Positions 317 through 33,398 of a stretch of DNA of 64,000 nt are shown here, piece by piece; the stretch's first letter is position 1, and each line of letters opens with the position of its first letter. Where the stretch lies: IMG/VR virus record IMGVR_UViG_3300032050_000011. One strand, 5' to 3'. The DNA comes from a virus. Made by a program: the position numbers and the translations under genes. A model generated the notes under the pieces. That model did no database searches and was not told the origin of the DNA. It worked only from the letters and a program-made list of their open reading frames with translations.

Positions 317-330
317 AACAGAATCGATAT
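317..330 (+). promoter_or_regulatory. class A phage promoter motif (AACAGAATCGATAT)
   Basis: One of 11 copies of AACAGWTTCGATAW-like motif lying just upstream of + strand starts. Confidence 0.7.
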
Positions 331-446
331 AATCATATGAAAAAGGGGAAAATATGGATGACAATCGACTTGGTGTGTACATTTGGACTATATTAAATGG
401 CTGTGTAGTTCTTTATTTTATTAGAATTTTTAGCTAAGGAGGCATT

Positions 447-605
447 ATGTTAGTTTTTTCAGATGGAATGACTTTTGATACTTCTGGTGATCTAAGGATT
501 ATTTGGGAAAAAGATGGCTTATATGTGTGTGGCAAGGGCATTCTAGTTCCTGTTGGTACCTACGACGAAGCACTACTAGTAATTGAAAGACTGGAATTTG
601 CATAG
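447..605 (+). CDS. hypothetical protein, 52 aa
   Basis: AGGAGG RBS then ATG; MLVFSDGMTFDTSGDLRIIWEKDGLYVCGKG... Confidence 0.65.
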   Translation: MLVFSDGMTFDTSGDLRIIWEKDGLYVCGKGILVPVGTYDEALLVIERLEFA

Positions 606-619
606 ATAAAAGGACTAAA

Positions 620-1102
620 ATGGATGATTTAAAGCTGATAAACGCTAGACTTCAAGAGCTGAATAAAGAGTTCAGAGAGCTTTCTGCTCTGAAGAAAGAA
701 CTTCAAGATAAAAGTAAGGCCCAGACAGTAAAAGAGAAGTACGGCGATTTTAAGTTTATGATTAAGTCGCCAACATTAATTGAAGAAATAGACTTTGAAA
801 AGCTTATGAAAGAGGCTGACTTACAGGTAGGTAGAAATGAGTTTGGACTTCCTGTCATTGCTTATGATTTTGGTAACGGCTTATCTTATCTATCAATTGT
901 AAGAGATGAAAAAGAAGCAAAAGTGAGATTAGCAGTAGATGAGCTGCTTAAGATAGCTGACGCAGCAAAAGAAGATTTTAAGCTGAACAACAACAAGATA
1001 ACTGAGGCAACTGAGTTGTTTGTTAAGTTTGAGGAGGCGCTTGAATTCAACAGCAACGAAATTACGCGAGTTGTTACAGATTCAGAAAACCTATCTGAGT
1101 AA
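620..1102 (+). CDS. hypothetical protein (coiled-coil N-terminus)
   Basis: 160-aa ORF with AAGGA RBS. Confidence 0.75.
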   Translation: MDDLKLINARLQELNKEFRELSALKKELQDKSKAQTVKEKYGDFKFMIKSPTLIEEIDFEKLMKEADLQVGRNEFGLPVIAYDFGNGLSYLSIVRDEKEAKVRLAVDELLKIADAAKEDFKLNNNKITEATELFVKFEEALEFNSNEITRVVTDSENLSE

Positions 1103-1270
1103 TATCTGTCAGCAGCTGCGCAAACCTGAATATCAAAACGATGCTATGAATAGCTTAAAGAAGTCAGTAGAGACTGAGCTGGAGTCTCTTTCCTTTCAGC
1201 TTACATGGGCAGAGTCTGATATGCGCGGTGAACTTATAATGATTTTGACCAAATTGAAAATATGGACCTA

Positions 1271-1284
1271 AACCGATTCGATAT
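1271..1284 (+). promoter_or_regulatory. class A promoter motif (AACCGATTCGATAT)
   Basis: Motif copy 25 nt upstream of ATG 1310. Confidence 0.7.
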
Positions 1285-1309
1285 TTTGACAACATCATAA
1301 GGGGGTTTT

Positions 1310-1752: not shown

Positions 1753-1761
1753 AGGAGTCGT

Positions 1762-3316: not shown

Positions 3317-3361
3317 TATAACAGGCTCGATTTCATATCATGAAAAACAAAAGGGGTTTGT

Positions 3362-3592
3362 ATGTTTAGAACAGAAGTCGGTGAGTATAAAGGCCATAAG
3401 ACTATCTCCATATTTAATGATGATAAGTTTGTTGTTAGTTTTGGGATTAGCAAGGCGAAAGCAATACTAGAGGTTTTAGACGACGTAAAAGAGTTTGTCG
3501 AAAAAAATCAAACTAATAGTTCTTCAAAGATTAATTTTGATTCTCTTACTGAAGAGCAGAAAAAAGCCATTATGCAGTTCATAAAGGGTTAA
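3362..3592 (+). CDS. hypothetical protein (EYKG...SFGxxKAKAIL family)
   Basis: AGGGG RBS; degenerate class A motif at 3320-3333. Confidence 0.7.
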   Translation: MFRTEVGEYKGHKTISIFNDDKFVVSFGISKAKAILEVLDDVKEFVEKNQTNSSSKINFDSLTEEQKKAIMQFIKG

Positions 3593-4257: not shown

Positions 4258-4323
4258 TATGGATCCCATAGTAAAAAATATAATAATACTATTGTTTTGT
4301 GTAACGCTTTTATCAGAGTTTAA

Positions 4324-4507: not shown

Positions 4508-4990
4508 ATGGATCAAAGAGAGTACCTAGCTCTACGAGATAAGGGTAGAAAGCACATGATAACTACATTAAAATGTTTTGAGTTTTGGGGACAAAGAGTA
4601 GGCCGCATAAACGGCGACATTAAGAATAAGTGGAGCGAAGCAAGATGGTATGCAGACCTAGGCTCAAGTTCTTTATTTGAGTTATTGAATGTTGATGTAG
4701 TATATAAGTCTGATCCAGATAAAGGTTTTAGATATAGAGTGCTGGATACTGCCAATCGAATCTCAATAAATCTATTCTTATTTAGATATATGGTTATTCT
4801 ATATAAGTTGTTTTTTTATAATGTAGCATACACTGCGGCCATGCTTAAGAATCCAGAGCATGCTAGAGACATAGTGTTGTCCGCTGACCATAGAAATAAA
4901 ATTATACTAGCAAAACCTTTTATTTTTACAGTTAAAATTTATTACGGAGTTAGGCGGTGGATTGCCGGTAAAATTCAGCGGGGGCGCTGA
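4508..4990 (+). CDS. hypothetical protein
   Basis: ORF 4460..4990; ATG 4508 follows AAGGA and the stop of the preceding small ORF. Confidence 0.65.
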   Translation: MDQREYLALRDKGRKHMITTLKCFEFWGQRVGRINGDIKNKWSEARWYADLGSSSLFELLNVDVVYKSDPDKGFRYRVLDTANRISINLFLFRYMVILYKLFFYNVAYTAAMLKNPEHARDIVLSADHRNKIILAKPFIFTVKIYYGVRRWIAGKIQRGR

Positions 4991-5021
4991 CACTGCTACG
5001 CCGAATACCGCTATAGGCTAC

Positions 5022-5035
5022 AACAGAATCGATAT
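5022..5035 (+). promoter_or_regulatory. class A promoter motif (AACAGAATCGATAT)
   Basis: Upstream of ATG 5054. Confidence 0.7.
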
Positions 5036-5053: not shown

Positions 5054-5539
5054 ATGAGTAAATTTGTTGGAATCAAAAAAGGTGACATTGTTCGTGTAAA
5101 GTTCATTGAGATGCGCGATCTTGTTGGCGTCAAAGGTACGAATAAAAGAAGACAAAGCTATCAGCTTGTAGGTGAATGGGAACTCGGAGCTAACATACTT
5201 GCCTTTACCTATGGCGGAGACTTTCTAGTTAAGAAAGACTTTCCTGACAACGCTAGTCCTCAAGAAACGCTTGAGCTACTTAACCATCTTGATGGTGGCG
5301 AATTTGACATACCTCAAGATATAGTAGCAGCTATTGATGTTATAGATGCTGCTTATAAGTTTGTAAGCGAAGACCATAAGATCTGCATGATCATGTCCGA
5401 CAGTGAATTGCTTATAAATGGAGAAAAACTTACCAATACAGGCGATGAAAAGCATCTAGATTTATTTGTCGAATTCGTAGAACGATATTTAACTAGTAAA
5501 GCGATAAATGATTCGCTTAAAAAGGAGAAGGATGTTTAA
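5054..5539 (+). CDS. hypothetical protein, paralogue of 33391..33933
   Basis: Shared GIKKxDIVRxKF, GGDFLV, NHLD and ELxING motifs. Confidence 0.75.
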   Translation: MSKFVGIKKGDIVRVKFIEMRDLVGVKGTNKRRQSYQLVGEWELGANILAFTYGGDFLVKKDFPDNASPQETLELLNHLDGGEFDIPQDIVAAIDVIDAAYKFVSEDHKICMIMSDSELLINGEKLTNTGDEKHLDLFVEFVERYLTSKAINDSLKKEKDV

Positions 5540-9797: not shown

Positions 9798-9840
9798 ATT
9801 ATACCATGCACTAGCCATTAAACATCAACAGATTCGATTT
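9798..9840. promoter_or_regulatory. back-to-back promoters: class B GGTATAAT (- strand, 9798-9805, nrdBA) and class A AACAGATTCGATTT (+ strand, 9827-9840)
   Basis: Motifs read directly in a divergent intergenic region. Confidence 0.6.
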
Positions 9841-10380: not shown

Positions 10381-10719
10381 ATGTCAAGCACTAAAGAACT
10401 AACGGATGTTGCAGTCGCAGAAAAAGAGAGTATACGAGAGCCGTCAAAGTATGACGTTATAGTTCACAATAACCAGCACACCTCATATGACGAGGTCATA
10501 ATCATACTATCTAATGCCTTTGAGATGAATTATCAGCAGGCACTAGATTTAGCAAATGTTGTTCACACAGAAGGCAAAGGCAGATGCGGAACTTATAGTA
10601 AAGAGGTCGCAGAAATGAAGCTAGTGCTTATAAACACTATAAAAGAATCACTGTCTCAAATAGTACCACAGAGAGCTAAAGAAATAAAGATGCTATTATT
10701 TACAATAGAGAAGAACTAG
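10381..10719 (+). CDS. clpS: ATP-dependent Clp protease adaptor ClpS-like
   Basis: YDVIVHN..T..EV, VHTEGKGRCG, EVAEMK; immediately upstream of clpA. Confidence 0.85.
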   Translation: MSSTKELTDVAVAEKESIREPSKYDVIVHNNQHTSYDEVIIILSNAFEMNYQQALDLANVVHTEGKGRCGTYSKEVAEMKLVLINTIKESLSQIVPQRAKEIKMLLFTIEKN

Positions 10720-10726
10720 GAGCAAT

Positions 10727-13027
10727 ATGACTAACAAGATTACAGAAGAAGTCATTAATGGTGTTATAGCTGAGTCTAATATAAACACAATATCTGTATG
10801 TAAGTTCTTTCGCTATTGTCTAAAAGAAGATTTTAAAGAAAATATATCTTTTTTAAAAGCAAAAGGCGCAGACATAGAGTTCTTAAAAGATTCTCTAGAC
10901 AATCATATAGAGGTAGAAGACGCACAACTTGAGATATTTAGTCAAGTTAAAACACTTATGAACAGATCATCTCAACTGGAACCAGCAATGACTCCAGAGT
11001 TGAGCAAAGTATTTGATCTTATGAAAAAAGCTGCAAGCAAAGATCAGCGACCAATGTATTTTGAAGATATGATAAATGCCATACATGTGCTAGGAAAGTC
11101 TGATCCTGACATGTACATAATCTACTTCTTAAAAAAATCTGGCTACAAGCATGATCCAGAATCTTCGCCTGGCGCACGCGGTAAATATAAGTTTATAGGA
11201 GAACTATGCGATGACTTAAATGCCAGAGCAAGCAAGAAACTCATAGATCCACTAATTGGTAGACGAAAAGAAGTAGAGCGGATGGTAGAAATTCTAGCTC
11301 ATTATAAGAAGAAAAACCCTATGCTTGTTGGTTTACCAGGTGTTGGTAAAACAGCAGTAGTCGAGGGTCTAGCCTCTATGATTGAGCAGAATTTAGTACC
11401 AGAGTCACTTAAAAAATCAAGAATATACTCATTGAATGTAGGCAACATATTGGCTGGTTCAAAGTTTCGTGGTGAATTTGAAGACAAGGTCAAGGGTGTA
11501 CTGCAAGATCTTAAGACTATGAAAGAAAAAGAAGGCATTAACGCCATACTATTCATAGACGAAGTGCATCAGGTGATGGGCGCAGGCGCAGGTGGAAGCA
11601 AGGAAGGTGTGGATCTAGCTAACATGATTAAGCCTGGTCTTGCCAATGGCGATCTTAGCTGTATCGGTGCAACAACAGATGATGAATACAACCAGAAGAT
11701 TCTTAAAGATAAAGCACTTATGCGCAGATTTCAGGTAGTAAAAATTGAAGAGCCTTCAGCAGAAGAGACTCTTCGCATACTAGAACAGGGAATAAAGCCC
11801 GTACTAGAGTCTTATCACGGAGTTAAATACTCTAGAGAAGTTCTAGAGCGAATAGTCGATCTATCAAAACAGTATGTAACCAGTCAGTTTTTTCCGGACA
11901 AGGCCATATCTATAGCCGACTCAGTCGGTGCTAGAATTAAAACTACACTTAAGGCGGAAAGAGTTGATGCTACAGTAGACGACGTAGAGGAGATAGTTTC
12001 TTCCATTACTGGAACGCCGGTGTCTGCTTTCAAAAAAACTCGTAGTAAAGAAACTTATGTCGATATAGCTAAAAATATAAAATCTACTATTTTTGGTCAG
12101 GATTCGGCGATTGATCGAGTAACTGAGCAGGTCGAATTAGCCAAAGCTGGATTGCGAGACGAGGGTCAGCCGATAGGTTCTTTTTTATTGCTAGGCCCAA
12201 CAGGAACAGGGAAGACCGAGTTGGCAAAGCAGATAGCTGCACAAACTGACTCGCATTTCTTTCAGCTCAATATGTCAGAATTCTCTGAAGAGCACGCCGT
12301 TGCAAAGTTGTTCGGAGCTCCTCCAGGCTATGAGGGACACGATCAAGGTGGTGTACTCACCAATGAGATAATGAAGTATCCGCACACTATCTTGCTTCTT
12401 GATGAGATTGAAAAGGCAAATAAGAAAGTCTATGACGCATTATTAGGCATCATTGACGGTGCGCAGATGACAGATGGCAGAGATAATAAGGTAGATTTTG
12501 GCAATGTGCTTATACTAATGACATCGAATGCTGGAGCTTCACAGGCCGCTAGAACTAAAAAACCGGTTGGAATAACTAGCGATGATGACGATGCAAAGAA
12601 TGCAAAAGCAAAGAGTATGGATGGCGTATTAAAGGATACATTTAGCCCGGAATTTAGAAACAAACTTACAGGCGTTGTATTGTTTGATTCATTGCAAAAA
12701 GATGTTATCATTAAAATAGTAGAAAAATTTATAAAAGTTGCACAAGTAAAGCTAATGGCAAAAGGCATAAAATTAACTGCAAGTAAAAAGGCAAAAGAAT
12801 TCATGGCAGACAAAGGCTATGATCCAGAGATGGGTGCTAGGCCTATTAAAAAGCTAATAGATGATCTTATAGTCAAACCTCTTGTTAAACCACTTCTTAA
12901 AAAAGAAGTTGAAGCTGGTGATACAGTAAAAGTTATATTAGTAGATAACGAGATTAAACTTGAATTCATAAAACCAAAGCAGCAAGAGGAGGTGGCGGAT
13001 GCAGTTGACCCTGGCACAGCAGGATAG
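10727..13027 (+). CDS. clpA: ClpA-type AAA+ unfoldase
   Basis: DPLIGR, GLPGVGKT, FIDEVH, FFPDKAI, GPTGTGKT, LLDEIEKA, GARP; no ClpB middle domain; VGI loop. Confidence 0.9.
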   Translation: MTNKITEEVINGVIAESNINTISVCKFFRYCLKEDFKENISFLKAKGADIEFLKDSLDNHIEVEDAQLEIFSQVKTLMNRSSQLEPAMTPELSKVFDLMKKAASKDQRPMYFEDMINAIHVLGKSDPDMYIIYFLKKSGYKHDPESSPGARGKYKFIGELCDDLNARASKKLIDPLIGRRKEVERMVEILAHYKKKNPMLVGLPGVGKTAVVEGLASMIEQNLVPESLKKSRIYSLNVGNILAGSKFRGEFEDKVKGVLQDLKTMKEKEGINAILFIDEVHQVMGAGAGGSKEGVDLANMIKPGLANGDLSCIGATTDDEYNQKILKDKALMRRFQVVKIEEPSAEETLRILEQGIKPVLESYHGVKYSREVLERIVDLSKQYVTSQFFPDKAISIADSVGARIKTTLKAERVDATVDDVEEIVSSITGTPVSAFKKTRSKETYVDIAKNIKSTIFGQDSAIDRVTEQVELAKAGLRDEGQPIGSFLLLGPTGTGKTELAKQIAAQTDSHFFQLNMSEFSEEHAVAKLFGAPPGYEGHDQGGVLTNEIMKYPHTILLLDEIEKANKKVYDALLGIIDGAQMTDGRDNKVDFGNVLILMTSNAGASQAARTKKPVGITSDDDDAKNAKAKSMDGVLKDTFSPEFRNKLTGVVLFDSLQKDVIIKIVEKFIKVAQVKLMAKGIKLTASKKAKEFMADKGYDPEMGARPIKKLIDDLIVKPLVKPLLKKEVEAGDTVKVILVDNEIKLEFIKPKQQEEVADAVDPGTAG

Positions 13028-13408: not shown

Positions 13409-14113
13409 ATGCAAGTAAGGCTTGTAGCACATACAAAGATAGACGATTCATATATGAACCATCTACTTGAATCAGATGACGGTGCTGATGTCTTTATTAA
13501 TAATGTGCAGTCGCTAGAAGGTCTAGTCGCTTACATGGCTAGAGTAAGCTCTTCAGATCAGAAAAATCCTAGCTACGCAGGCCTCATCAGATACTGCATG
13601 AATCATGGTCACTGGTCAATATTAGAAACAGGTAACGCTACATTTGAGATAGAGACTTCCAGAGCTATCTCGGCTCAGATACTTAGGCATAGATCGTTCA
13701 GCTTCCAGGAGTTTAGTCAGCGCTATCAGTCGGTTGACGAAAGCGGTATAGAGTTGTTTGTAGCAAGAAGACAAGATGTAAAAAACAGACAGAACTCTAT
13801 AGACGATCTAGATGAAGCAGTAAAGCAAGAATGGGAAGATCGCCAACTAGAAAACTGGCGGTCAGCATTTGATCACTATAAGTGGGCTTTGGACAACGGT
13901 ATAGCTAAAGAAACTGCTCGCGCAGTGCTTCCGGTGCAAGCCAGAACTCGTATGTTCATGAACGGCACTCTAAGATCATGGGTGCACTATGTTAATTTAA
14001 GAACTGATCCGTCAACTCAGAAAGAGCACAGAGATATTGCTGAAGAAATAAAAAGTCAGCTAACACAGGCTTTTCCAGTTATAGCAGAGGCGGCAGGTTG
14101 GAAAACCAGATGA
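13409..14113 (+). CDS. thyX: flavin-dependent thymidylate synthase
   Basis: RHRSFSFQEFSQRY signature, GHWSILE, AKETARAVLP. Confidence 0.95.
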   Translation: MQVRLVAHTKIDDSYMNHLLESDDGADVFINNVQSLEGLVAYMARVSSSDQKNPSYAGLIRYCMNHGHWSILETGNATFEIETSRAISAQILRHRSFSFQEFSQRYQSVDESGIELFVARRQDVKNRQNSIDDLDEAVKQEWEDRQLENWRSAFDHYKWALDNGIAKETARAVLPVQARTRMFMNGTLRSWVHYVNLRTDPSTQKEHRDIAEEIKSQLTQAFPVIAEAAGWKTR

Positions 14114-15160: not shown

Positions 15161-15832
15161 ATGTCTGACAATTCGATCGATGACATTGTGGTTAACGAAT
15201 TTACAGAACAGTCTGCGAGAAACTTTAGAAAGCATTTGATTTCTAGAGCGGTAAGTGATCCTGGAGTCCCCATCATAGTCTACATAGACTCATATGGTGG
15301 TTCACTTGATTCACTTAATTCTATGCTGGAAACCATAGAGCAGGTCGCCAGTCCTATAATCACCGTGTGTATGGGTAAAGCAATGAGCTGCGGTGCAGTC
15401 TTGCTTGCTGCAGGTGATCATCGTTTCTGCGGAAGATCATCGAGGGTGATGATACATCAGGCTACTGGTGGTGACTATGGTCCTATAGAGAGTCTACAGA
15501 AAAATGTAGATGAGTGCAAAAGAATGAACGAGTCTTTTATGGCTTTTCTCGCTAAACGCTGCGGAAAATCCTTAGATCAACTTAAAAAAATAATTAAAGA
15601 CAACGATTCTCGCGATCTATATCTTAGTGCAGAAGACTGCAGGAAGTTTGGTATAGTCGACTTCATAGGTATGCCTCACATAAAGCCTCTAACTATGTAT
15701 CAAATAGATATTGCACCAGAAAAAACATACGGAAAAGTTTTGAACTTGGAAAAGAAGAACTTAAACAGATTCGATAAAAAAACAAAAAAGAGGAGGACAA
15801 ATGCCAGATCAAACAGACGAAGTAAAAAATAA
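15161..15832 (+). CDS. clpP: ClpP-like serine protease (ClpP1)
   Basis: IDSYGG, AMSCG (Ser), VMIHQ (His), RDLYLSA (Asp), FGIVD. Confidence 0.9.
   Translation: MSDNSIDDIVVNEFTEQSARNFRKHLISRAVSDPGVPIIVYIDSYGGSLDSLNSMLETIEQVASPIITVCMGKAMSCGAVLLAAGDHRFCGRSSRVMIHQATGGDYGPIESLQKNVDECKRMNESFMAFLAKRCGKSLDQLKKIIKDNDSRDLYLSAEDCRKFGIVDFIGMPHIKPLTMYQIDIAPEKTYGKVLNLEKKNLNRFDKKTKKRRTNARSNRRSKK
15764..15777 (+). promoter_or_regulatory. class A promoter motif (AACAGATTCGATAA)
   Basis: Upstream of GGAGG-ATG 15801. Confidence 0.7.
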
Positions 15833-16133
15833 AGTAACGATTTCAAACGAAGATTGTGCAAATGTTATAAAGTATGCCACACACTTTAACGTGCCGTTAT
15901 CAGCTGAGTTGCAAGTTGCATTAGATAAATTTACAGCTGACAATTCGTTTGAAAATCAACTAGAGATTAAGCTTGAAATGTGCAAATGGATGCTGTCTAG
16001 CGCTCATGAGTCTTTTCAAGATAGTCTATGGGATGCACCAAAAAAAGCAGCAGAGTCCGTTGTCTTCAATCTTCAATTTGATAAAGATGTGAAAGACGTG
16101 CTTACTAAGGGCGACGATTCTGCCCAGGAATAG
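15801..16133 (+). CDS. hypothetical protein
   Basis: Strong RBS. Confidence 0.75.
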   Translation: MPDQTDEVKNKVTISNEDCANVIKYATHFNVPLSAELQVALDKFTADNSFENQLEIKLEMCKWMLSSAHESFQDSLWDAPKKAAESVVFNLQFDKDVKDVLTKGDDSAQE

Positions 16134-16584
16134 GTGGTGGTTGGTTATCGGATGGTAAAGATGGTGGCAGATCGTTGGCCTCTGGCATAGGCGGTGGCAG
16201 ATCGCCACTCTCTGGTAGAGCCGGAGGTGTTTCTTTTGCAGCAGATGCTTGCTTTTGTTTAGCGGCGCTAGCTCTTGAAGCCAACTCAACCGCTGGATCT
16301 ACGACTCCTTCCTTGCCGAAGGATCTGTTTCCAGTGCAATGATCTTGCATTATGCCATCAATTCTTGATCTGGCGTATGTTCTAAATCCGGATGCACCGT
16401 GTTTTTGACTATCAAAATCACGTATTGCAAGCATTAGTCCATGCAATCCAGCATCATAGAGATCATTTGGATGAGTAATTCTATCCGGATACTTTTTGGA
16501 TTTGCGCGATGCAAGCTCATGTATATCTGGTAGATATTCTTTAAATAGGTCTTCTATTAGTTTTTGATGATGCTCATTTTTCAT
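16105..16584 (-). CDS. truncated sigma70-family factor (region 2 only, FliA/WhiG-like) with Pro-rich tail
   Basis: LFKEYLP..., DLYDAGLHGLMLAIRDFD, FRTYARSRIDGIMQD; no region 4 HTH; leaderless after GGTATAAT. Confidence 0.75.
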   Translation of the reverse strand: MKNEHHQKLIEDLFKEYLPDIHELASRKSKKYPDRITHPNDLYDAGLHGLMLAIRDFDSQKHGASGFRTYARSRIDGIMQDHCTGNRSFGKEGVVDPAVELASRASAAKQKQASAAKETPPALPESGDLPPPMPEANDLPPSLPSDNQPPPIPGQNRRP

Positions 16585-16615
16585 GTCACTATTATACCAT
16601 TAGCAGGAGGTATAA

Positions 16616-16897
16616 ATGAATTATATGTTTTACGAGTCTACTAGAATAGTAGAGAAACAAGAAAAACACGAAAAATCAAGAGCTTACGATCTTATTGAAT
16701 CTTTAGAAAAAAGCGGATTAGACAATCATCATCTGTTTTGTGCGCTGGAGTTGATGAGCAAAAGAGCACAGTCTGAATTTGAGTCAGCCGTCATTTTAAA
16801 AGCCAAACAGATACTCATAGCTCACAAGGAGAAAAATGAAACAGATGACATTAGTATTATTAGTCGCTTTAGTAGCTGCGTGCGCTCCCAAAGCTAG
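16616..16897 (+). CDS. hypothetical protein
   Basis: GGAGG RBS. Confidence 0.55.
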   Translation: MNYMFYESTRIVEKQEKHEKSRAYDLIESLEKSGLDNHHLFCALELMSKRAQSEFESAVILKAKQILIAHKEKNETDDISIISRFSSCVRSQS

Positions 16898-19811: not shown

Positions 19812-19825
19812 AACAAATTCGATAT
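19812..19825 (+). promoter_or_regulatory. class A promoter motif (AACAAATTCGATAT)
   Basis: Upstream of the thioredoxin gene. Confidence 0.6.
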
Positions 19826-19839: not shown

Positions 19840-20169
19840 ATGAAAGCATTATTAATTTTAACTACTTTATGTTTTTCGCTTGCTGCAAGTGCAGAAGTAA
19901 GAATAATTAAATTTTCAGCCGAGTGGTGCAAGCCGTGCAAAGACTACAAGCCGGTTATCGATAAAGTAGTAAAAGAACTAAAGCTTGACATGCAAGAGGT
20001 CGACATCGATAAGAATCCTAACCTAGCGAATAAATTTGCAGTTGAAGGCGTGCCAACGACAGTGTTCCTTGAAGGCGATAAAGAGGTTGCTAGAATTTTA
20101 GGTTCTGTTGACGAAAAATTTTTAAAACAATTTACTGAGAATGTAATAAAATCAACAAAGGGGAAATAG
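19840..20169 (+). CDS. thioredoxin with signal peptide
   Basis: MKALLILTTLCFSLAASA|E signal; FSAEWCKPC; GVPT. Confidence 0.85.
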   Translation: MKALLILTTLCFSLAASAEVRIIKFSAEWCKPCKDYKPVIDKVVKELKLDMQEVDIDKNPNLANKFAVEGVPTTVFLEGDKEVARILGSVDEKFLKQFTENVIKSTKGK

Positions 20170-21824: not shown

Positions 21825-22394
21825 TTAGTCGTCTTCGCCCTCTATCTCGTCTATTAGACCTAGATCAAGAGCTTTTTCTGAAGAAATATAAGTATCAAAG
21901 TCCATCATTTTTTGGAGTTGCGCTAGCTTAAAACCTGAATCTTTTTCATTTATCTTAGATAAATAAATAGCCATGCAGATCTTATCCATCTCATCATTTT
22001 CTTGTACTGCACGCTTAACATCATTAAAATGACCATTGACATCCATCTGACCTCTATGTATCATCAATCTTGAATGCTTACTCATGACTCTAACATCTGC
22101 CGCTTGCAATATGATGCTACCCATACTCATCGCTACGCCTATTACCTTAACGGTAACAGCATTTCCGCAGTCTTTTATAGCATCATAGGCCGCAAAACCA
22201 AGATTGACATCTCCGCCGCTTGAGTCAAGCACTACTAATATTTCGCCATCTGTTTTATCTAGATACTTTATCAACTTAACAAACTTATGTATGTTCTCAC
22301 TGTCGACTTCGCCCTGCAAGTAGATTATTCTGCCGCGTATATCTATACCATGCTCTATGAGAATATCAAAATCAGTCTGTCGCCTGTCGTTCAT
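21825..22394 (-). CDS. clpP: ClpP-like serine protease (ClpP2)
   Basis: RIIYLQGEV, DSSGG, AMSMG (Ser), LMIHR (His), FDTYISS (Asp), LGLIDEI; start 22394 after AAGGGA. Confidence 0.9.
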   Translation of the reverse strand: MNDRRQTDFDILIEHGIDIRGRIIYLQGEVDSENIHKFVKLIKYLDKTDGEILVVLDSSGGDVNLGFAAYDAIKDCGNAVTVKVIGVAMSMGSIILQAADVRVMSKHSRLMIHRGQMDVNGHFNDVKRAVQENDEMDKICMAIYLSKINEKDSGFKLAQLQKMMDFDTYISSEKALDLGLIDEIEGEDD

Positions 22395-22436
22395 ATATGT
22401 CCCTTGACACTGCCACGGCAGCATACTATATCTAGC

Positions 22437-22470
22437 ATTATACCTGGTCTTGCTTTGGCAGATTCGATAT
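22437..22470. promoter_or_regulatory. back-to-back promoters: class B GGTATAAT (- strand, 22437-22444, clpP2) and class A GCAGATTCGATAT (+ strand, 22458-22470)
   Basis: Motifs read directly. Confidence 0.6.
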
Positions 22471-22487
22471 AAAATCAAGAGGTTAAG

Positions 22488-22781
22488 ATGAGTAAAACAA
22501 ATGAAGAACTTGTAAGAGAATTTTTAGAAAAAGGTGGAAAAATAGAAGTGCTACCACCTGCTGACAATAATCAGGTAAATCCTATATCTAGTATTACAAG
22601 TCAGCCAGTTAAACTTCTCTCGCTAGAAGAGGCAGAGTCCCTATACGGCGAAAAAACAGAAAGAAAAAGTAAGGCTAAAAAGCCTGACCTAAAAAACATA
22701 AACATGAATCTAATACCCGATCATTTGAAGAAATACATATTGTCGAAGTTCGACAATGATATTACAAAGGAGAACGAATGA
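22488..22781 (+). CDS. SutA-like RNA polymerase-binding protein (putative)
   Basis: VREFLEKGGKIEVLP motif. Confidence 0.5.
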   Translation: MSKTNEELVREFLEKGGKIEVLPPADNNQVNPISSITSQPVKLLSLEEAESLYGEKTERKSKAKKPDLKNINMNLIPDHLKKYILSKFDNDITKENE

Positions 22782-24375: not shown

Positions 24376-25134
24376 ATGGCAAGAAAAAAGAAAGTTCTAA
24401 GAGAATACAACGTCTGCAAGTGCTTAGTAACTAACATACAGTCAGTTACAGGGCATAAAACACACGAGATACTATCATATATGCATTCTCTAGCAGAGAA
24501 CTGCATAAAAGAGAATGGATTAAGAGTAGATAAATATGAAGAAGTGTCCTACTACGAGCCGACTATAATTGACTACTCCTATTATCCTAACACTAAGATA
24601 TATCTAGCCGTATCTATTAGTAGAATTTCTAATCTAATAGAAGAAGACAATTCCGACGACTTAGTACAGTGCATGTATGTAGACTACAAGTTCTACACGC
24701 CTTCTTCTATTAAAAAACTAACACAAGAACAGTTTGACGATATAGTTATCGATGCAATGCTGACTGACTTTTCTATGGACTTTGATCCGCCTGCTATAAA
24801 GAAAAGAAAGACGCTTGTTCAACTAAAGAAAGAAGAAAAAGAGCGTGAGGCTAAAGAAAAAGTAAGACAAATTAATTATCTAAAAAAAGAACTAAAAAGT
24901 CTTCTTAGGCAAACTCTAGAATATAAAGCAAATGCTGTAGATGACAGTTCCACTAAATCTACAAGAAACTACTATGTTAGACAATTTAAAAAAAGTGAAA
25001 GAGAAATAAACTATGTAATTAATCAGCTAAAAAACCTAGGCGATAAAACACATGAGGTGCTTTTGACCCCAACAGATTCGATAAATAATCAAACGGAGGG
25101 CAAATGTCAAACCAAAGTCAAACTCAAGCTCTAG
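24376..25134 (+). CDS. hypothetical protein
   Basis: 252-aa ORF. Confidence 0.7.
   Translation: MARKKKVLREYNVCKCLVTNIQSVTGHKTHEILSYMHSLAENCIKENGLRVDKYEEVSYYEPTIIDYSYYPNTKIYLAVSISRISNLIEEDNSDDLVQCMYVDYKFYTPSSIKKLTQEQFDDIVIDAMLTDFSMDFDPPAIKKRKTLVQLKKEEKEREAKEKVRQINYLKKELKSLLRQTLEYKANAVDDSSTKSTRNYYVRQFKKSEREINYVINQLKNLGDKTHEVLLTPTDSINNQTEGKCQTKVKLKL
25071..25084 (+). promoter_or_regulatory. class A promoter motif (AACAGATTCGATAA)
   Basis: Upstream of GGAGG-ATG 25104. Confidence 0.7.
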
Positions 25135-27014: not shown

Positions 27015-27060
27015 CAGTGTCAGAGGCTATTTATAGTAAATTATATGGTATAATATAGGT

Positions 27061-27576
27061 ATGGAAAACACTAAGCTGCTTGATTCTTTACAAGAAATTT
27101 ATGATGACCTAATCTGGCTCGAAGAGCAGGTTGCCTCTGATCTAAATAAGGGGCCCAACTATTGGAAAGACAAGGACCCGGCTAAGTATAAGAAAATGCT
27201 AACAAAATTGCGAAGAGATCGCAAAACACCTGGCCATAAAGAGCGCGGCTATCAGCAGGTTCTTCAGGCTAAGCGGCGTGAAAAAGGTAAGCCTGGCACG
27301 CGTAGCGGCCAAAATGGCAAGAAGGGTCACTCTTCAGGGCATATGAAGACTAAGACAGGTGCTGCAGCGAAGCGCTATGCTTCTGCCGAGAAAAAGCATG
27401 GTAAGAAGATGTCAATGAACCGCAAGAACAACAATAAAGGATACGCCTCGGGCAACGTAAAGCTTATATCTCAGAAATACAATAAGGGCGACGAAAAGTA
27501 TTCTAGAAAAGCACCTGAAAATAATCTTAAAAGTAAATTAAAAAAACTAAAAAAAGCATTACTTGATTATCTTTAA
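27061..27576 (+). CDS. very basic protein with degenerate HNH-like motif; putative internal head protein
   Basis: SMNRKNNNKGYASGNV; acidic leader ending LNKG; leaderless after GGTATAAT (27047-27054). Confidence 0.5.
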   Translation: MENTKLLDSLQEIYDDLIWLEEQVASDLNKGPNYWKDKDPAKYKKMLTKLRRDRKTPGHKERGYQQVLQAKRREKGKPGTRSGQNGKKGHSSGHMKTKTGAAAKRYASAEKKHGKKMSMNRKNNNKGYASGNVKLISQKYNKGDEKYSRKAPENNLKSKLKKLKKALLDYL

Positions 27577-29583: not shown

Positions 29584-29774
29584 ACGCAATTATTCTAGGT
29601 TGGCTTTTCATAGGATCAGTCGTAAATCTTTTCATACATTACAGAAACGCTGATAAATTTGGCACTGCACTTATGGGTGGACAGCTCAACATACTTGTAT
29701 TTCTACTTATGGGCTTCACTAATCATATACTTTGGCCACTCGCTCTCTACACCGAACTCACTAGAAAACTCTGA
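29580..29774 (+). CDS. small membrane protein
   Basis: Two hydrophobic segments, LWP motif. Confidence 0.6.
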   Translation: MNAIILGWLFIGSVVNLFIHYRNADKFGTALMGGQLNILVFLLMGFTNHILWPLALYTELTRKL

Positions 29775-29786
29775 CAGATTCGATAT
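29773..29786 (+). promoter_or_regulatory. class A promoter motif with leaderless ATG 6 nt downstream
   Basis: GACAGATTCGATAT-taatac-ATG(29793). Confidence 0.7.
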
Positions 29787-30171
29787 TAATACATGAGAGT
29801 TAGTGATAAAATTCAGATAGTTGAAAATTTTTTGGCATGCTTGGACAAACTTGTTGAATTTACTCAAGTAGAATCAGATACTGGCATTGAGACTAGTGAT
29901 CTAGTTCTAGTTCTAAGAATTGGAATTTATATAGATTAAATGCTAGAACAGATTAACCCCGCTGTTCTATCATCGGGCACAACTAATAGGATTTGGTTGT
30001 GCCCTCTTTATAAGAGGAATATGCTGCCAGAAGGATCGAAGTCCATAATAAAACTAATATCTTTTCTAGATAATCTAGATTTATTGATTTTTTATAGCGG
30101 AAATTCAGAAACACTCATGTGGGAGTTTGCTACTCCCGGAACAAAAATAGGTCAAAAACTGGAGGTACTAG

Positions 30172-30456
30172 ATGCTAAGCTCTACACAGATGAAATATAT
30201 CGAGCTAGAGAAGAAGAAAGAGGCTTACAAGAAGTTCTTGGAAGAATTAAAGGAGGCTACTCAGGCAGTAGTGAATGAAGTCGGAGTCGGCGGTCATTTT
30301 CAAGATGCTGAAGGTACCGTTTATCAGGTTGAAGAATCTGACGGGAAATTCGTGTACTTTGACAGATTCGAAATTAAACGCACGAGACGTAGTGGCGAAA
30401 AATCTGGCACACTATCTCTAACAAAAGCAAAAGAACTAGGTTATGGAGTAGCATAG
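30172..30456 (+). CDS. hypothetical protein
   Basis: GGAGG RBS. Confidence 0.7.
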   Translation: MLSSTQMKYIELEKKKEAYKKFLEELKEATQAVVNEVGVGGHFQDAEGTVYQVEESDGKFVYFDRFEIKRTRRSGEKSGTLSLTKAKELGYGVA

Positions 30457-30488
30457 CTTGTTAAATTTCAAACGTTTTAGGAGTTACC

Positions 30489-31199
30489 ATGTCTATTTTT
30501 AAAGATCGTGTCTATGAAGAGATGGATGACATATCCAGGCTTATTGAGCCATATCAATGTGGTCTGAACGAAGACCTATCGAAGTTTCCAGATAGGCTAG
30601 AAATTGATCCAGATCAGCTAGAGTCTACATGGGGAACAAACGTGCGTGATATAGTTAGAAGATATGCAAAATCTGCGGAGCTCAATGCTCTTTCAGAAAA
30701 CGTCTGGGACCTAGATCCTAATTTCTTTCAGTTTGAGATAGTTAACTCAGAAGGTGAGCAAACAGATTCACTGCGTTACAATTTTGCTACTAAAGAAATA
30801 GACGGCAAAATTTTTCTAGTGAAGAAAATGTTCTGCGTTGAAGACGACGGTGTCATGAACATAATTATTAAAAATGTAGAAAATAAACTTAGCATGTATA
30901 ATCGTCACGCTGATTCAAAAAGAATAAATGAGATTGCTGATCTATTCAATGCAGAAGAAGTAAAGCAGAAAAGATCAGCCAGTAAAAAAATGCGTTGTCT
31001 AAGAAATCATATAGTTGGTCTGATTAAGTCTAAAAAGCTAGACATACGAGATGCAGAGCTTGCCGCTAGATTCAGCAACTGGATAGTGCTCTATGCTAAT
31101 GATGGAAGTTTACCTGCGCTTGCAAATATTACGAAGCTAAAAATTATGACTCATCAGAATAAACCTATATATTCAATTGATGAAAGGAGCACCGTATGA
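30489..31199 (+). CDS. hypothetical protein
   Basis: AGGAG RBS, 236 aa. Confidence 0.75.
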   Translation: MSIFKDRVYEEMDDISRLIEPYQCGLNEDLSKFPDRLEIDPDQLESTWGTNVRDIVRRYAKSAELNALSENVWDLDPNFFQFEIVNSEGEQTDSLRYNFATKEIDGKIFLVKKMFCVEDDGVMNIIIKNVENKLSMYNRHADSKRINEIADLFNAEEVKQKRSASKKMRCLRNHIVGLIKSKKLDIRDAELAARFSNWIVLYANDGSLPALANITKLKIMTHQNKPIYSIDERSTV

Positions 31200-31705
31200 A
31201 GTTTGATGATCGCCTAAAGTCTTTAACAAGTAGTATTGATCCAGGTGCACCTCTTATAAGACTAAAGATGTCTAGTGATTTGAAGACAATAAGAGCAGAG
31301 TCGATGCCGTGGTTTCCTCCTGCCGACGATCCTAGTTTTCTAGGTCGATTAATCACTGAGTGTGTTAGACGTACTCAGACTATTAATGGCTATACGATAG
31401 ATTATGCTGCAACTAAGTCAAATATAACTGAGTCAGTTGTAGATAATTTTTCTCATCTATATACAAGGGTATCTACGAATAAAGAACCAACTAGAACCAA
31501 GACATTTAAGGCAATTAAGCAGCTGCAGCGAAAAGCACGTCGCGAAGAAGATATATTCGAAGACTTTTTTGCTATTGCAGAATACAATGATCAGGTTACT
31601 AGAGAAGACAGTATTACAAGTGTGAGCAATCAAGTTCATCGTAAAAATATACTCTATTTAATAGAGTCACTAGTGAGGAAGCATGGAAGTGAGAACAATA
31701 ACTAA
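31196..31705 (+). CDS. hypothetical protein
   Basis: ATGA coupling. Confidence 0.7.
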   Translation: MKFDDRLKSLTSSIDPGAPLIRLKMSSDLKTIRAESMPWFPPADDPSFLGRLITECVRRTQTINGYTIDYAATKSNITESVVDNFSHLYTRVSTNKEPTRTKTFKAIKQLQRKARREEDIFEDFFAIAEYNDQVTREDSITSVSNQVHRKNILYLIESLVRKHGSENNN

Positions 31706-32048
31706 TGAAATGGTGCTTAAATATGCACCGATGATTGAAAGCTACATGGCTAATTCAGTTAGAAAAAACTGGAACGAGGCCTGTCTAAGTAAAAACAATG
31801 ATTGCGTAAGCTTAGGCAACAGCGGCTGGACTATGGCCGATATCCGCTCATATCTAATGACGGAAGTTTTTATAGCATTACGCAACTATAGCCCAGACCA
31901 CAATACGAAAGAGTCTACTTTTGTATATGGCCATCTTAGTAAGCGAGTTGGTTCACTAATGAAAAAACTAACAAATAAATCAAAAGGCTATGGGTTTTGG
32001 TCTCTTAATTTAGAGACGGTACTTGGTGAAACTGAATATGATGATTAA
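31683..32048 (+). CDS. divergent sigma region-2-like protein
   Basis: MVLKYAPMI...DIRSYLMTEVFIALRNYSPDHNTKESTFVYGHL resembles the sigma region 2 pattern (xYDPxxxxKFSTYAY). Confidence 0.5.
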   Translation: MEVRTITNEMVLKYAPMIESYMANSVRKNWNEACLSKNNDCVSLGNSGWTMADIRSYLMTEVFIALRNYSPDHNTKESTFVYGHLSKRVGSLMKKLTNKSKGYGFWSLNLETVLGETEYDD

Positions 32049-32070
32049 GTATAATTGTCATGGAGGGGAC

Positions 32071-32871
32071 ATGAAGAAATTTAACAATATACATGAAGCA
32101 TATCTAGGTGTTCTAGCTGACGTCTATGATAATCCAGATCACATTTGTTCACCGCGAGGTCAGCGAGTCCGTGAGAAGATGTATTATGCCTTTCAGATCG
32201 CAGAGCCAAAAAGTGAGACGATAGTTACACATGATGCCGCACGCAACAAGACTATTGCAAGCTATACAGCGAAAGAATGTGGACTCTACAATTCTGGCTC
32301 CAACAAAGCAGTCGACTTTGCTGAAGCATCTAAGTTTTGGCTTGATATCGCAAATCCAGATGATACAATAAACTCAGCTTATGGCTATCTAGTTAAGCAT
32401 AACAAGTCGCATGGCAACCCTAAGTATGAGCTGTTTAATAATCTGCAAGGTCTTATCTCAGATCAGGTGGTCAATTATCTTATTGACAATAGCGGCAGAG
32501 TTATGCGAACTCCCTGGGAGTGGTGCGTTGATGCGCTGAGATCTGATAAGGATACACGGCAGGCTATACTGCGTTTTAGCTTACCAGAGCATTTCTATAA
32601 GGGTAACAAGGATATGACTTGTACCTTAGACGGCAACTTCCATATCAGGGATGATAGGTTGTTGTTCAGAGTTCACATGCGAAGCAACGATCTTACTTTA
32701 GGTCTAGTCTATGACTTGCCGTGGTTTATATCGCTAGCAGAAGATATGATTAAAGAGCTCAGTGATATCTACCCAGATCTGAAGCTAGGTCCATATACAC
32801 ATATGGTTGACTCTATTCATACCTATGACAGAGATGAAGAAAAAATCCTCAAGATGCTAGGAAGGCGATGA
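32071..32871 (+). CDS. thymidylate-synthase-fold enzyme, dCMP hydroxymethylase/methylase-like
   Basis: SPRG, INSAYG, DTRQA, DMTCT, MRSND, GLVYD (Asp at the TS Asn177 position), SIHTYD; start 32071 after GGAGG. Confidence 0.75.
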   Translation: MKKFNNIHEAYLGVLADVYDNPDHICSPRGQRVREKMYYAFQIAEPKSETIVTHDAARNKTIASYTAKECGLYNSGSNKAVDFAEASKFWLDIANPDDTINSAYGYLVKHNKSHGNPKYELFNNLQGLISDQVVNYLIDNSGRVMRTPWEWCVDALRSDKDTRQAILRFSLPEHFYKGNKDMTCTLDGNFHIRDDRLLFRVHMRSNDLTLGLVYDLPWFISLAEDMIKELSDIYPDLKLGPYTHMVDSIHTYDRDEEKILKMLGRR

Positions 32872-33398
32872 TGGACGACGCAGTAACAAAAGCCTATATA
32901 GATTCAGTAATGGGGGCTAGTGGTGCGAACGTAAATCCAATTATTAGCACTACGGGCACAAGTTCAGGTCACTTAACCATCAATCCAGCCTATTCACTGC
33001 ATATAGGGCCTGGGTTGTCATCTAAAGAAGAAGTGGAATTGAAAGAACTTCAACTTGAACATGAAAAGCTGTTAAGACAAAAAAGAATACAGATGTTTAA
33101 GAACATGCCAGCATCATTTAGGCAGTTTATAGTAGATACCATAAATGTAAATGATTTTGTAAGTAGTCTAAAGTCTGCTACAGTAGATGACTCAGAGCTG
33201 GTAGAAAAAATTAGCCAACTTAAGTCTAGAGACTCTAGGTTTCATCTCAGTGGGCATTATGGTGAAGGCATCTACTTGTCTGTTCCATATCAGCTGCTTG
33301 AACTTATATCAGTTGAAGAATTAAGGGATGCTCATGCTACTCAGACTCTAGAAGAGGAACTATCTGCTTCGACAGATTCGATAAATAAACATGAATAA
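32868..33398 (+). CDS. hypothetical protein
   Basis: Operon-coupled ORF. Confidence 0.65.
   Translation: MMDDAVTKAYIDSVMGASGANVNPIISTTGTSSGHLTINPAYSLHIGPGLSSKEEVELKELQLEHEKLLRQKRIQMFKNMPASFRQFIVDTINVNDFVSSLKSATVDDSELVEKISQLKSRDSRFHLSGHYGEGIYLSVPYQLLELISVEELRDAHATQTLEEELSASTDSINKHE
33371..33384 (+). promoter_or_regulatory. class A promoter motif with leaderless ATG 6 nt downstream
   Basis: GACAGATTCGATAA-ataaac-ATG(33391). Confidence 0.7.

What the first reader, a model, noticed from the sequence alone, without database searches (positions are those of the whole stretch)
317..33384. Recurrent AACAGATTCGATAW element: a single-block phage promoter class
Seen: 11 near-identical copies, all on the + strand and all shortly upstream of gene starts (317, 1271, 3320, 5022, 9827, 15764, 19812, 22457, 25071, 29773, 33371). 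At 29773 and 33371 the ATG lies exactly 6 nt after CGATAW with no RBS. This is the geometry of a -10 element driving a leaderless mRNA. No conserved -35 box is visible. Known: CGATA is the core of sigma28/FliA -10 elements. Inference: a phage-specific -10-only promoter read by a dedicated sigma or activator.
Basis: partly seen in the sequence, partly recalled or inferred. Interest (0 to 1): 0.8.

Follow-up and report, generated by a model that had tools for sequence, protein, structure and literature searches.

The report
Phage promoter class for mini-sigma
A 14-base signal repeated in front of the non-structural genes of an uncultured large phage is very probably a phage-specific promoter without a -35 box, most likely read by the phage's own tiny FliA-like sigma factor; it is a new example of a known strategy.

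Summary
All 11 listed copies exist. They lie only on the + strand (13 matches against 1.75 expected), and none occur among the minus-strand structural genes. Twelve more copies lie just upstream of the window. The core ACMGRNYCGA occurs 54 times on the sense strand and 0 times on the antisense strand in seven related phage contigs.

A pyrimidine-purine step, usually CA, sits 6-7 nt after the block in about 90% of sites, as expected for a transcription start. Most sites lie 14-50 nt before an SD-led start codon. At 29773 and 33371 the ATG sits on the predicted +1. This layout is conserved in one relative, while two more distant relatives keep the motif but add an SD leader.

The window encodes a 159-aa sigma with only domain 2 (16105-16584, minus strand). 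Its closest matches are FliA/WhiG. In every relative it is expressed from a leaderless TGGTATAAT promoter. Where its equivalent of sigma-28 Asp87 (a residue that contacts G-12/C-13) is replaced, the CG of the motif is no longer conserved.

This makes it a new member of the -35-less phage sigma/promoter kind (phiEco32 gp36, T4 gp55). All evidence is computational and no transcription start has been mapped. The scan's index shows no earlier report of this motif on other DNA.

The parts
317..330 (+). Promoter block AACAGAATCGATAT. The predicted +1 is at 337, the A of a 19-codon ATG mini-ORF. An SD-led gene follows at 447.
1271..1284 (+). Promoter block AACCGATTCGATAT, 25 nt before the SD-led ATG at 1310.
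   Evidence: The block is conserved at the orthologous site L001:365 while its flanks diverge.
3320..3333 (+). Promoter block AACAGGCTCGATTT, the weakest listed copy, 28 nt before the ATG at 3362.
   Evidence: The ortholog at L001:2418 has the full core.
5022..5035 (+). Promoter block AACAGAATCGATAT, 18 nt before the ATG at 5054. The element TGACACTGCTACGCC lies 33 nt upstream.
9827..9840 (+). Promoter block AACAGATTCGATTT in the divergent intergenic region between the minus-strand nrdAB-like (RNR) operon and the + strand ClpS/Clp-ATPase operon. It is the only conserved + strand element in that region.
15764..15777 (+). Promoter block AACAGATTCGATAA inside the 3' end of a ClpP-like gene, 23 nt before the ATG at 15801. 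Its transcripts run convergently into the mini-sigma gene.
19812..19825 (+). Promoter block AACAAATTCGATAT, 14 nt before the ATG at 19840 (thioredoxin-like gene).
22457..22470 (+). Promoter block GGCAGATTCGATAT in the divergent region after a minus-strand ClpP gene, 17 nt before the ATG at 22488.
25071..25084 (+). Promoter block AACAGATTCGATAA, 19 nt before the ATG at 25104.
   Evidence: The ortholog is at L093:2112.
29773..29786 (+). Promoter block GACAGATTCGATAT. The ATG at 29793 lies on the predicted +1.
29793..29939 (+). Candidate leaderless 48-aa gene with no SD.
   Evidence: A 48-aa ortholog (45% identity) starts at the same distance from the motif in L093.
30361..30374 (+). It lies upstream of the operon that contains the 121-aa sigma-2-like gene.
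   Evidence: It is conserved at L093:6987.
33371..33384 (+). Promoter block GACAGATTCGATAA inside the 3' end of the upstream gene. The ATG at 33391 lies on the predicted +1.
33391..33933 (+). Candidate leaderless 180-aa gene with no SD.
   Evidence: The ortholog in G001 has the same motif, a 6-nt gap and the ATG. Orthologs in G002 and G003 keep the motif but have an SD-containing leader.
16105..16584 (-). Mini sigma factor of 159 aa: sigma domain 2, one further helix and a Pro-rich tail. It is FliA/WhiG-like and is the proposed reader of the motif.
   Evidence: Pfam Sigma70_r2; NCBIfam FliA 1.3e-9; best PDB sequence matches are WhiG and FliA; AF2 model and Foldseek, top hit the sigma-28 open complex; syntenic homologs; co-variation with the motif
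16591..16599 (-). Extended -10 promoter TGGTATAAT, followed 6 nt later by the ATG of the mini-sigma gene (leaderless layout).
   Evidence: The same layout is present in L001-L005, L090, L091, L096, L097 and L098.
31683..32048 (+). A second candidate sigma-2-only protein (121 aa), very conserved, lying inside an operon driven by this promoter class. It is the rival or next-stage sigma.

Best explanation
The element RACMGAWTCGAWWW is a phage-specific promoter. Host RNA polymerase core, carrying the phage's 159-aa sigma that has only domain 2 (window 16105-16584, minus strand), binds the block and melts the A/T-rich stretch that begins at the A after CG. It starts at the conserved purine 7 nt after the block.

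The sigma gene itself is transcribed from a conserved, leaderless TGGTATAAT promoter, which needs no -35 box. That promoter could be read by host sigma-A or by the phage's own RpoD-like sigma lacking region 4. The mini sigma then switches on about two dozen units of small-protein, nucleotide-metabolism, Clp and ligase genes on the + strand. Two transcripts (29793 and 33391) start at the A of their ATG and are translated without a leader.

Shown by sequence analysis: the motif, its strand and gene association, its conservation, the Y-R step, the sigma and its affinities, and the co-variation. Inferred: that transcription starts there, which sigma reads it, and the order of events.
For: 1. Occurrence. 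There are 13 matches against 1.75 expected, all on the + strand. The core occurs 54 times sense and 0 times antisense in the window plus its upstream flank and six relatives. Three relatives show strand ratios of 15/2, 1/14 and 2/17, with reversed-pattern controls of 1-6. A complete 166.6-kb relative has 15 forward and 3 reverse matches, the forward ones lying only at 9-35 kb and 122-165 kb.

2. Start-site signature. A pyrimidine lies 6 nt after the block in 48/54 sites and a purine at 7 nt in 49/54 (A in 43). The stretch between is A/T-rich.

3. Gene association. Of 22 sites, 14 have an SD-led start within 60 nt, against a random mean of 3.9 and a maximum of 11 in 2000 trials. Sites 9827 and 22457 lie where a + strand unit must begin after minus-strand genes.

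4. Conservation. Orthologous sites keep the block while their flanks diverge. The 180-aa gene keeps the motif in four phages, twice leaderless and twice with an SD leader.

5. Geometry. The same spacing of hexamer, 6 nt and ATG occurs at canonical TGGTATAAT promoters (16599 minus strand, 27046 + strand) and is conserved for the sigma gene in 10 relatives.

6. No competing promoter type. Classical -35/-10 promoters are not enriched: 50 against 55.5 expected, and 53 against 63.

7. Sigma affinity. The best matches of the 159-aa sigma are FliA/WhiG. It keeps Y70, R74 and D81, which align with Pa sigma-28 Y76, R80 and D87. Those residues stack on A-11 and contact G-12/C-13 of GCCGATAA (alignment; PMC12784957). 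As in sigma-28 promoters, -7 is not conserved.

8. Co-variation. With the CG masked, 11 loci whose sigma keeps D81-H82 have CG at 55/57 sites. Four loci with D81 replaced (E, N, S or A) have non-CG at 8/14 sites. Fisher's test gives 1e-5 by site and 7e-4 by locus.
Against: - No transcript 5' end, expression data or binding data exist, and the host is unknown.
- A second sigma-2-like protein (121 aa, 31683-32048) is a possible reader. In the most informative variant genome (G006) it has also diverged, so that genome does not separate the two candidates.
- Relative L091 has T74/N81 in its mini sigma but still has CG at 4 of 6 sites. The residue-to-base mapping is therefore loose.
- The loci are phylogenetically related, so the Fisher values overstate independence.
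- If A of CGA is -11 as in sigma-28, the conserved purine would be -1 rather than +1. The spacing is one base shorter than in the sigma-28 structure.
- It is unexplained how a sigma without domains 3 and 4 would read the upstream half (AACAGA, about -20 to -15).
- If the small-protein genes upstream of the window are the earliest genes, they would need this sigma at time zero.
Confidence: 0.62

Rival explanations
1. The element is a promoter, but a different sigma reads it. Candidates are the very conserved 121-aa sigma-2-like protein (31683-32048) and a host sigma-28/SigD-type factor. The 159-aa sigma would then serve another class.
For: - The 121-aa protein folds like sigma domain 2: pLDDT 85, with Foldseek top hits FliA, SigA and the SigE N-terminal domain at probability 0.95-0.97.
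- It is 65-86% identical across more than 180 clusters, as conserved as the motif itself.
- In G006 it has diverged along with the motif.
- TCGATAT resembles the host sigma-28/SigD -10 element.
Against: - The 121-aa gene lies inside an operon driven by this same promoter class (30361 and 29773 upstream), so it could not start the class.
- Its sequence match to sigma is weak: E 0.004 with the family profile, hhalign probability 4%, and no PDB sequence hit.
- It lacks the R80/D87 equivalents of sigma-28.
- A host sigma-28 would need the TAAA -35 box and the GC extension, both absent.
- The residue that co-varies with the motif is in the 159-aa sigma.
Confidence: 0.15
2. The element is a host sigma-A promoter with a weak -10 (GATAWW). 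The conserved AACAGAWTC half would be the binding site of a phage activator or appropriator, in the manner of T4 MotA/AsiA.
For: - Some copies contain good TATAAT-like hexamers (317: TCGATATAAT).
- The upstream half lies beyond the reach expected of sigma domain 2.
- Many phage ORFs nearby have no assigned function.
Against: - Many copies have no usable sigma-A -10 (CGATTTTTTT, CGAAAAAAAT).
- The T at -7, which is essential for sigma-A, is not conserved.
- The invariant CGA has no role in a sigma-A -10.
- No DNA-binding activator was identified.
- The motif co-varies with a sigma residue.
Confidence: 0.1
3. The element acts in RNA or in DNA without starting transcription. It could be a processing site for a phage endoribonuclease, a translational operator, or a replication or packaging signal.
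For: - It lies shortly before ribosome-binding sites, like T4 RegB/RegA targets.
- It sometimes lies inside the 3' end of the upstream gene (15764, 25071, 33371).
Against: - Sites 9827 and 22457 follow minus-strand genes, where no upstream + strand RNA is expected, yet a + strand unit must begin there.
- The distance to the start codon varies from 0 to 50 nt, while the distance to the Y-R step is fixed.
- No conserved secondary structure or Rfam family was found.
- The geometry is identical to that of bona fide TGGTATAAT promoters.
Confidence: 0.05

Closest known systems
phiEco32 gp36-dependent middle/late promoters (tAATGTAtA)
   Same: A single conserved block with no -35 box. Transcription starts 6-8 bp downstream. 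It is read by a phage-encoded sigma that has no region 4 and that works with host core polymerase (PMC8948821).
   Different: - The consensus is unrelated (RACMGAWTCGAWWW) and longer: 14 bp reaching about -20.
- The sigma belongs to a different family (FliA-like domain 2, 100-160 aa).
- Function here is predicted only.
T4 late promoters with gp55 (plus gp33 and the gp45 clamp)
   Same: A -35-less promoter read by a very small phage protein made essentially of sigma domain 2. gp55 is described as the smallest sigma-70 family member and has a variable linker with a short acidic/hydrophobic C-terminal epitope (PMC2988020). The mini sigmas here also end in a Pro-rich linker with an acidic tip.
   Different: - No detectable sequence relationship to gp55: the PHROG hit is only to the generic sigma family 351.
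- The consensus differs. The T4 motif TATAAATA is quoted from my own knowledge.
- The genes driven here are non-structural, not late.
- Dependence on a clamp or co-activator is unknown.
Bacterial sigma-28 (FliA/SigD/WhiG) promoters: TAAA-N15-GCCGATAA
   Same: The CGAT(A/T) core with a conserved A after CG, and no conservation at -7. The phage sigma's domain 2 is most similar to this group and keeps the residues that contact A-11 and G-12/C-13.
   Different: - There is no GC extension: W-T occupies those positions.
- There is no -35 TAAA box, and the sigma has no domains 3 and 4.
- A conserved AACAGA block sits directly upstream instead.
- The spacing to the start is one base shorter.
SPO1 late promoters read by gp34 (with gp33)
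   Same: The phage is a distant relative of SPO1-like phages: major capsid protein about 30% identical. SPO1 uses small phage sigmas for later classes (PMC13401047). From my own knowledge, the SPO1 late -10 is GATATT, which resembles GATAWW.
   Different: From my own knowledge, SPO1 late promoters also have a -35 element (CGTTAGA). No homology between gp34 and the 159-aa sigma was detected by tblastn against cultured phages. No direct comparison was run.

Membership tests
Sigma-28/FliA-type promoter | -10 core CGATAA with a conserved A at -11 and G at -12 | tested here: met
   CGA is present in all 11 sites used to build the matrix. With those positions masked, CG appears at 55/57 sites in 11 loci.
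Sigma-28/FliA-type promoter | GC extension at -15/-14 | tested here: not met
   These positions are W (A 19, T 26, C 9) and T (50/54).
Sigma-28/FliA-type promoter | -35 element TAAA(G) about 15 nt upstream, read by sigma domain 4 | tested here: not met
   There is no information content at those positions. The phage sigma has no domain 4.
Phage -35-less single-block promoter with a region-4-less sigma (phiEco32 gp36 / T4 gp55 kind) | One conserved block near -10 and no -35 box | tested here: met
Phage -35-less single-block promoter with a region-4-less sigma (phiEco32 gp36 / T4 gp55 kind) | The phage encodes a sigma lacking region 4 | tested here: met
   The 159-aa protein consists of Sigma70_r2 plus one helix and a disordered tail. 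Homologs are 100-160 aa.
Phage -35-less single-block promoter with a region-4-less sigma (phiEco32 gp36 / T4 gp55 kind) | Transcription starts 6-9 bp downstream of the block and depends on that sigma | not testable with these tools
   Only indirect evidence exists: a Y-R step at +6/+7 in about 90% of sites and sigma-motif co-variation.
Phage -35-less single-block promoter with a region-4-less sigma (phiEco32 gp36 / T4 gp55 kind) | Sequence homology of the sigma to gp55 or gp36 | tested here: not met
   tblastn against 50,697 phage records gives no hit better than E 0.2. The PHROG match is only to the generic family 351.
Extended -10 sigma-A promoter (TGnTATAAT) | TG at -15/-14 and TATAAT with a T at -7 | tested here: not met
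   The motif has W-T at -15/-14 and no conserved T at -7. True TGnTATAAT sites form a separate class in the same window.
Leaderless mRNA | The start codon lies at the transcript 5' end with no SD | tested here: inconclusive
   The ATG lies on the predicted +1 with no SD at 29793 and 33391, and this is conserved in G001. The transcription start itself has not been measured. At 317 and 3320 the same ATG opens only 19- and 9-codon ORFs.

The most novel reading that the evidence does not exclude
A sigma of only 100-160 residues (domain 2 plus one helix) would be enough to specify a contiguous promoter of 14-19 bp reaching -20/-25. That would make it the smallest functional sigma known. It would form part of a programme of three sigmas (an RpoD-like sigma without region 4, the 159-aa mini sigma and the 121-aa mini sigma) that dispenses with -35 recognition entirely. 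The programme would use leaderless mRNAs, including the mRNA of the sigma itself, and convergent transcription from the sigma's own promoter class across the sigma gene would act as a built-in shut-off.
Probability: 0.3. Interest if true: 0.75.

Novelty: new member of a known kind. Interest (0 to 1): 0.55.

Why it matters
- It gives a concrete, testable promoter-sigma pair for a widespread family of uncultured phages. Family contigs reach 184 kb, and one complete 166.6-kb genome is available.
- The motif allows operons and regulatory classes in these genomes to be annotated from sequence.
- A minimal FliA-like sigma shows how domain 2 alone might specify a long promoter.
- The short sigma with its 14-bp promoter could serve as a compact orthogonal expression part.
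- The observed link between Asp81 and the CG dinucleotide predicts a specificity swap that can be tested directly.

Tried and rejected
- **Megablast of 20 kb against cultured phages:** no match.
- **Whole genome:** none is held for this window. The flank was rebuilt from a near-identical ENA contig instead.
- **tRNA and Rfam scans:** nothing found, so no non-coding RNA explains the sites.
- **Host identification from the RpoD-like sigma:** about 50% identity to many phyla, which is uninformative.
- **tblastn of the mini sigma against cultured phages:** nothing found.
- **Word-based homolog search:** only 2 hits. The full HMMER search was needed.
- **More genomes with variant sigmas:** the family alignment was too diverse for a scan. 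Single-protein scans returned unrelated ECF-type sigmas or nothing. Several look-ups gave contigs of only 1-7 kb.
- **De novo k-mer searches:** searches for a late-gene motif and for altered motifs in divergent loci were dominated by coding bias. TAAAATTG is not enriched: 7 matches against 6.3 expected.
- **Classical -35/-10 promoters:** not enriched.
- **AR9-type late promoter, AACA(N6)TW (recalled from memory):** rejected. The spacing does not fit, and no phage RNA polymerase gene is seen in the window.
- **121-aa protein against the mini-sigma profile:** the match is weak and there is no PDB sequence hit. Only the predicted fold supports a sigma-2 assignment.
- **Earlier notes of this scan:** no prior report of this motif on other DNA.

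Full report
**1. The observation**

A search for AACAGATTCGATAW with up to 2 mismatches gives 13 matches, all on the + strand. Shuffles give 1.75 +/- 1.36, and none of 100 reaches 13. The eleventh (3320, AACAGGCTCGATTT) has three mismatches, but it scores 21.7 bits with a matrix built on the set. Its ortholog in a relative carries the full core. A twelfth good site at 30361 was not listed. No strong site lies on the minus strand or among the minus-strand structural genes at 37.6-64 kb.

**2. The organism**

The window comes from a large uncultured phage. It has no nucleotide match among cultured phages, and its major capsid protein is about 30% identical to those of SPO1-like phages. The + strand arm (1-37.6 kb) encodes:
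- RNR (minus-strand insert), ClpS, a ClpC-like ATPase and two ClpP-like proteases;
- ThyX and a ThyA-like protein;
- an ATP-dependent ligase, nucleases and many small ORFs.

A near-identical 118-kb ENA contig supplied 18.8 kb upstream of the window. That flank holds 12 more copies, often in the form GACAGACTCGATAT, all on the + strand.

**3. Conservation**

Six IMG/VR relatives (Clp ATPase 55-90% identical) carry the motif on the gene strand only. The core AC[AC]G[AG][ACT][TC]CGA occurs 54 times sense and 0 times antisense. About 1 per strand would be expected in the 83-kb composite by base composition (my arithmetic).

Whole records show strand ratios of 15/2, 1/14 and 2/17, with controls of 1-6. 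A complete 166.6-kb relative with terminal repeats has 15 forward and 3 reverse matches. The forward ones lie only at 9-35 kb and 122-165 kb.

Orthologous sites keep the block while their flanks diverge. The family consensus is RACMGAWTCGAWWW.

**4. Evidence that the element is a promoter**

- Across the 54 sites, the base 6 nt after the block is a pyrimidine in 48 and the next base is a purine in 49 (A in 43). The interval between is A/T-rich. This is the usual signature of a start site at a fixed distance from a -10 element.
- Of 22 sites, 14 have an SD-led start within 60 nt, against a random mean of 3.9 and a maximum of 11 in 2000 draws. Typical distances are 14-50 nt.
- Sites 9827 and 22457 sit in divergent regions directly after minus-strand genes. 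A new + strand unit must begin there, and the motif is the only conserved + strand element.
- Classical -35/-10 promoters are not enriched.
- Upstream of the block only a C 4 nt before it stands out, in 35 of 54 sites. There is no -35 box.

**5. Leaderless starts**

At 29773 and 33371 the ATG lies on the predicted +1 and no SD is present.

In relative G001 both arrangements are conserved. A 48-aa ortholog (45% identity) and a 180-aa ortholog (69% identity) each begin 6 nt after the block. In the more distant G002 and G003, the 180-aa ortholog (41-45% identity) keeps the motif but has a short SD-containing leader. The motif-to-start distance is therefore fixed, while the motif-to-ATG distance is not. 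This fits a promoter and not an RNA operator.

One caveat applies. Ten of 24 sites have ATG at that position, and most of these open only 2-19 codons before an SD-led gene. An ATG at +1 alone is therefore not proof of a leaderless gene.

The same geometry (hexamer, 6 nt, ATG) occurs at canonical TGGTATAAT promoters at 16599 (minus strand) and 27046 (+ strand).

**6. The candidate reader**

ORF 16105-16584 (minus strand, 159 aa) gave the following results:
- It matches Pfam Sigma70_r2.
- Its best NCBIfam models are FliA (1.3e-9) and FliA/WhiG.
- Its best PDB sequences are WhiG and FliA.
- The AF2 model shows domain 2, one further helix and a disordered Pro-rich tail.
- The top Foldseek hit is the Pseudomonas sigma-28 open complex. 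E-values are weak, but the leading hits are all sigma factors.

Syntenic homologs of 100-160 aa occur in all 16 family loci examined. Many more exist in metagenomes.

In the window and 10 relatives the gene is preceded by TGGTATAAT, 6 nt and ATG. One distant homolog has TGGTATAAT with an SD leader. The sigma can therefore be made from a promoter that needs no -35 box.

The genome also encodes an RpoD-like sigma that ends before region 4 (L009 4109-4798). This fits the TGnTATAAT class.

**7. Link between sigma and motif**

In sigma-28 promoters the -10 element is (-15)GCCGATAA(-8). A-11 stacks on Y76, R80 contacts G-12, D87 contacts G-12/C-13, and -7 is not conserved (PMC12784957).

The alignment places Y70, R74 and D81 of the phage sigma on these residues. 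The five-residue offset between chain and paper numbering is consistent for six residues.

I then masked the CG in the matrix and rescanned the 16 loci. Antisense hits were essentially nil.
- Eleven loci whose sigma keeps D81-H82 have CG at 55 of 57 sites. The two exceptions are the lowest-scoring sites.
- Four loci have D81 replaced and show non-CG at 8 of 14 sites: L108 (W74, E81, R82), L091 (T74, N81, E82), L098 (Q74, S81) and L096 (A81). G006 adds one more non-CG site.
- Fisher's test gives 1e-5 by site and 7e-4 by locus.
- L091 is a close relative of the window (ligase 82% identical), so the changes are not confined to one clade.

Three limits apply. The loci are related. L091 keeps CG at 4 of 6 sites. 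In G006 the second sigma-like protein has also diverged.

**8. The second sigma-like protein**

ORF 31683-32048 (121 aa) hits the mini-sigma profile weakly (E 0.004) and gives hhalign probability 4%. Its confident model (pLDDT 85) most resembles sigma domain 2 of FliA, SigA and SigE. It is 65-86% identical across more than 180 clusters.

It lies inside an operon driven by the motif (30361 and 29773 upstream). I therefore read it as a next-stage factor, though it remains the main rival reader.

**9. Comparison and verdict**

The closest characterised system is phiEco32 gp36. It has one block (tAATGTAtA), starts 6-8 bp downstream, and its sigma has no region 4. T4 gp55 is the classical domain-2-only sigma. 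Sigma-2-only proteins are reported as common in phages (bioRxiv 10.64898/2026.10.08.757525).

The present element is a new member of that kind. It has a new consensus that combines a sigma-28-like CGAWW core with an adjacent AACAGA block. It also has a new, smaller sigma family. All of this is prediction from sequence, and no start site or binding has been measured.

Noticed in passing
window + strand 4988-5002 and 22405-22419; minus strand near 27021, 35833 and 51291; five more copies 8-11 kb upstream of the window (L009): A second conserved element, TGACACTGCYACG(CC), often lies right after a hairpin plus T-run and 28-53 nt upstream of the promoter block. It occurs on both strands. In five relatives it gives 17 matches, against 0 for the reversed control. 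Its function is unknown.
   Followed up: partly
window 15764-16615: The promoter at 15764 drives a 110-aa gene that overlaps the 3' end of the convergent mini-sigma gene. No other + strand promoter precedes the ligase operon at 16616 onward, so transcripts of this class must cross the sigma gene in antisense. The layout is conserved in L001, L091 and L098. It may act as a built-in shut-off of the sigma.
   Followed up: partly
window 337, 3340; L009 8165, 9192, 9639, 12122: Ten of 24 sites have ATG at the predicted +1, followed by a stop after 2-19 codons (for example ATG AGA TAA) and then an SD-led gene. These may be 5'-terminal mini-ORFs that load ribosomes, or simply a preferred initial transcribed sequence.
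   Followed up: no
L009 4109-4798 (minus strand), about 14 kb before the window: An RpoD-like sigma of 229 aa with regions 1.2, 2 and 3 but ending before region 4.2 (RpoD_Cterm model positions 1-193 of 238). It fits the TGnTATAAT promoters found before RNR, the mini sigma and several structural genes (9806, 16599, 44824, 49184, 49275 and 57436 on the minus strand; 5918 and 27046 on the + strand).
   Followed up: partly
window 27046-27576: TGGTATAAT, 6 nt, then the ATG of a 171-aa basic protein. This is another leaderless layout. The protein has weak PHROG hits to 'Srd anti-sigma factor' (4e-6) and to HNH endonucleases.
   Followed up: no
window 10381-13027, 15161-15832, 21825-22478: The phage carries a whole Clp system: ClpS, a 766-aa ClpC/ClpA-like ATPase and two ClpP-like proteases, one on each strand.
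   Followed up: no
window 13409-14113 and 32023-32871: The window encodes both ThyX and a ThyA-like protein. The second could be a dUMP or dCMP hydroxymethylase, which would imply modified bases in the DNA, as in SPO1. That could matter for promoter recognition.
   Followed up: no
mini-sigma family (A1, P0003-P0028): The tails are Pro-rich linkers of variable length ending in an acidic tip, sometimes with Phe (…SSEDF, …EGSEF, …PEEE). This recalls the linker and clamp-binding epitope of T4 gp55, and suggests a partner protein.
   Followed up: no
window 37647-40223 (minus strand): Promoter-like hits recur every 189 nt inside the 858-aa gene (37892, 38081, 38270, 38459; 39518, 39707, 39899). This indicates tandem repeats of about 63 aa in a likely tail or fibre protein.
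   Followed up: no
L002 14215, L004 10838, L005 13639, L103 and L098 7013: In several relatives one promoter copy is followed by a conserved stretch (…AATACGATTCTTCTCA… / …GATCTTCTCA…) with no obvious SD. This could be a small RNA or a conserved leader.
   Followed up: no
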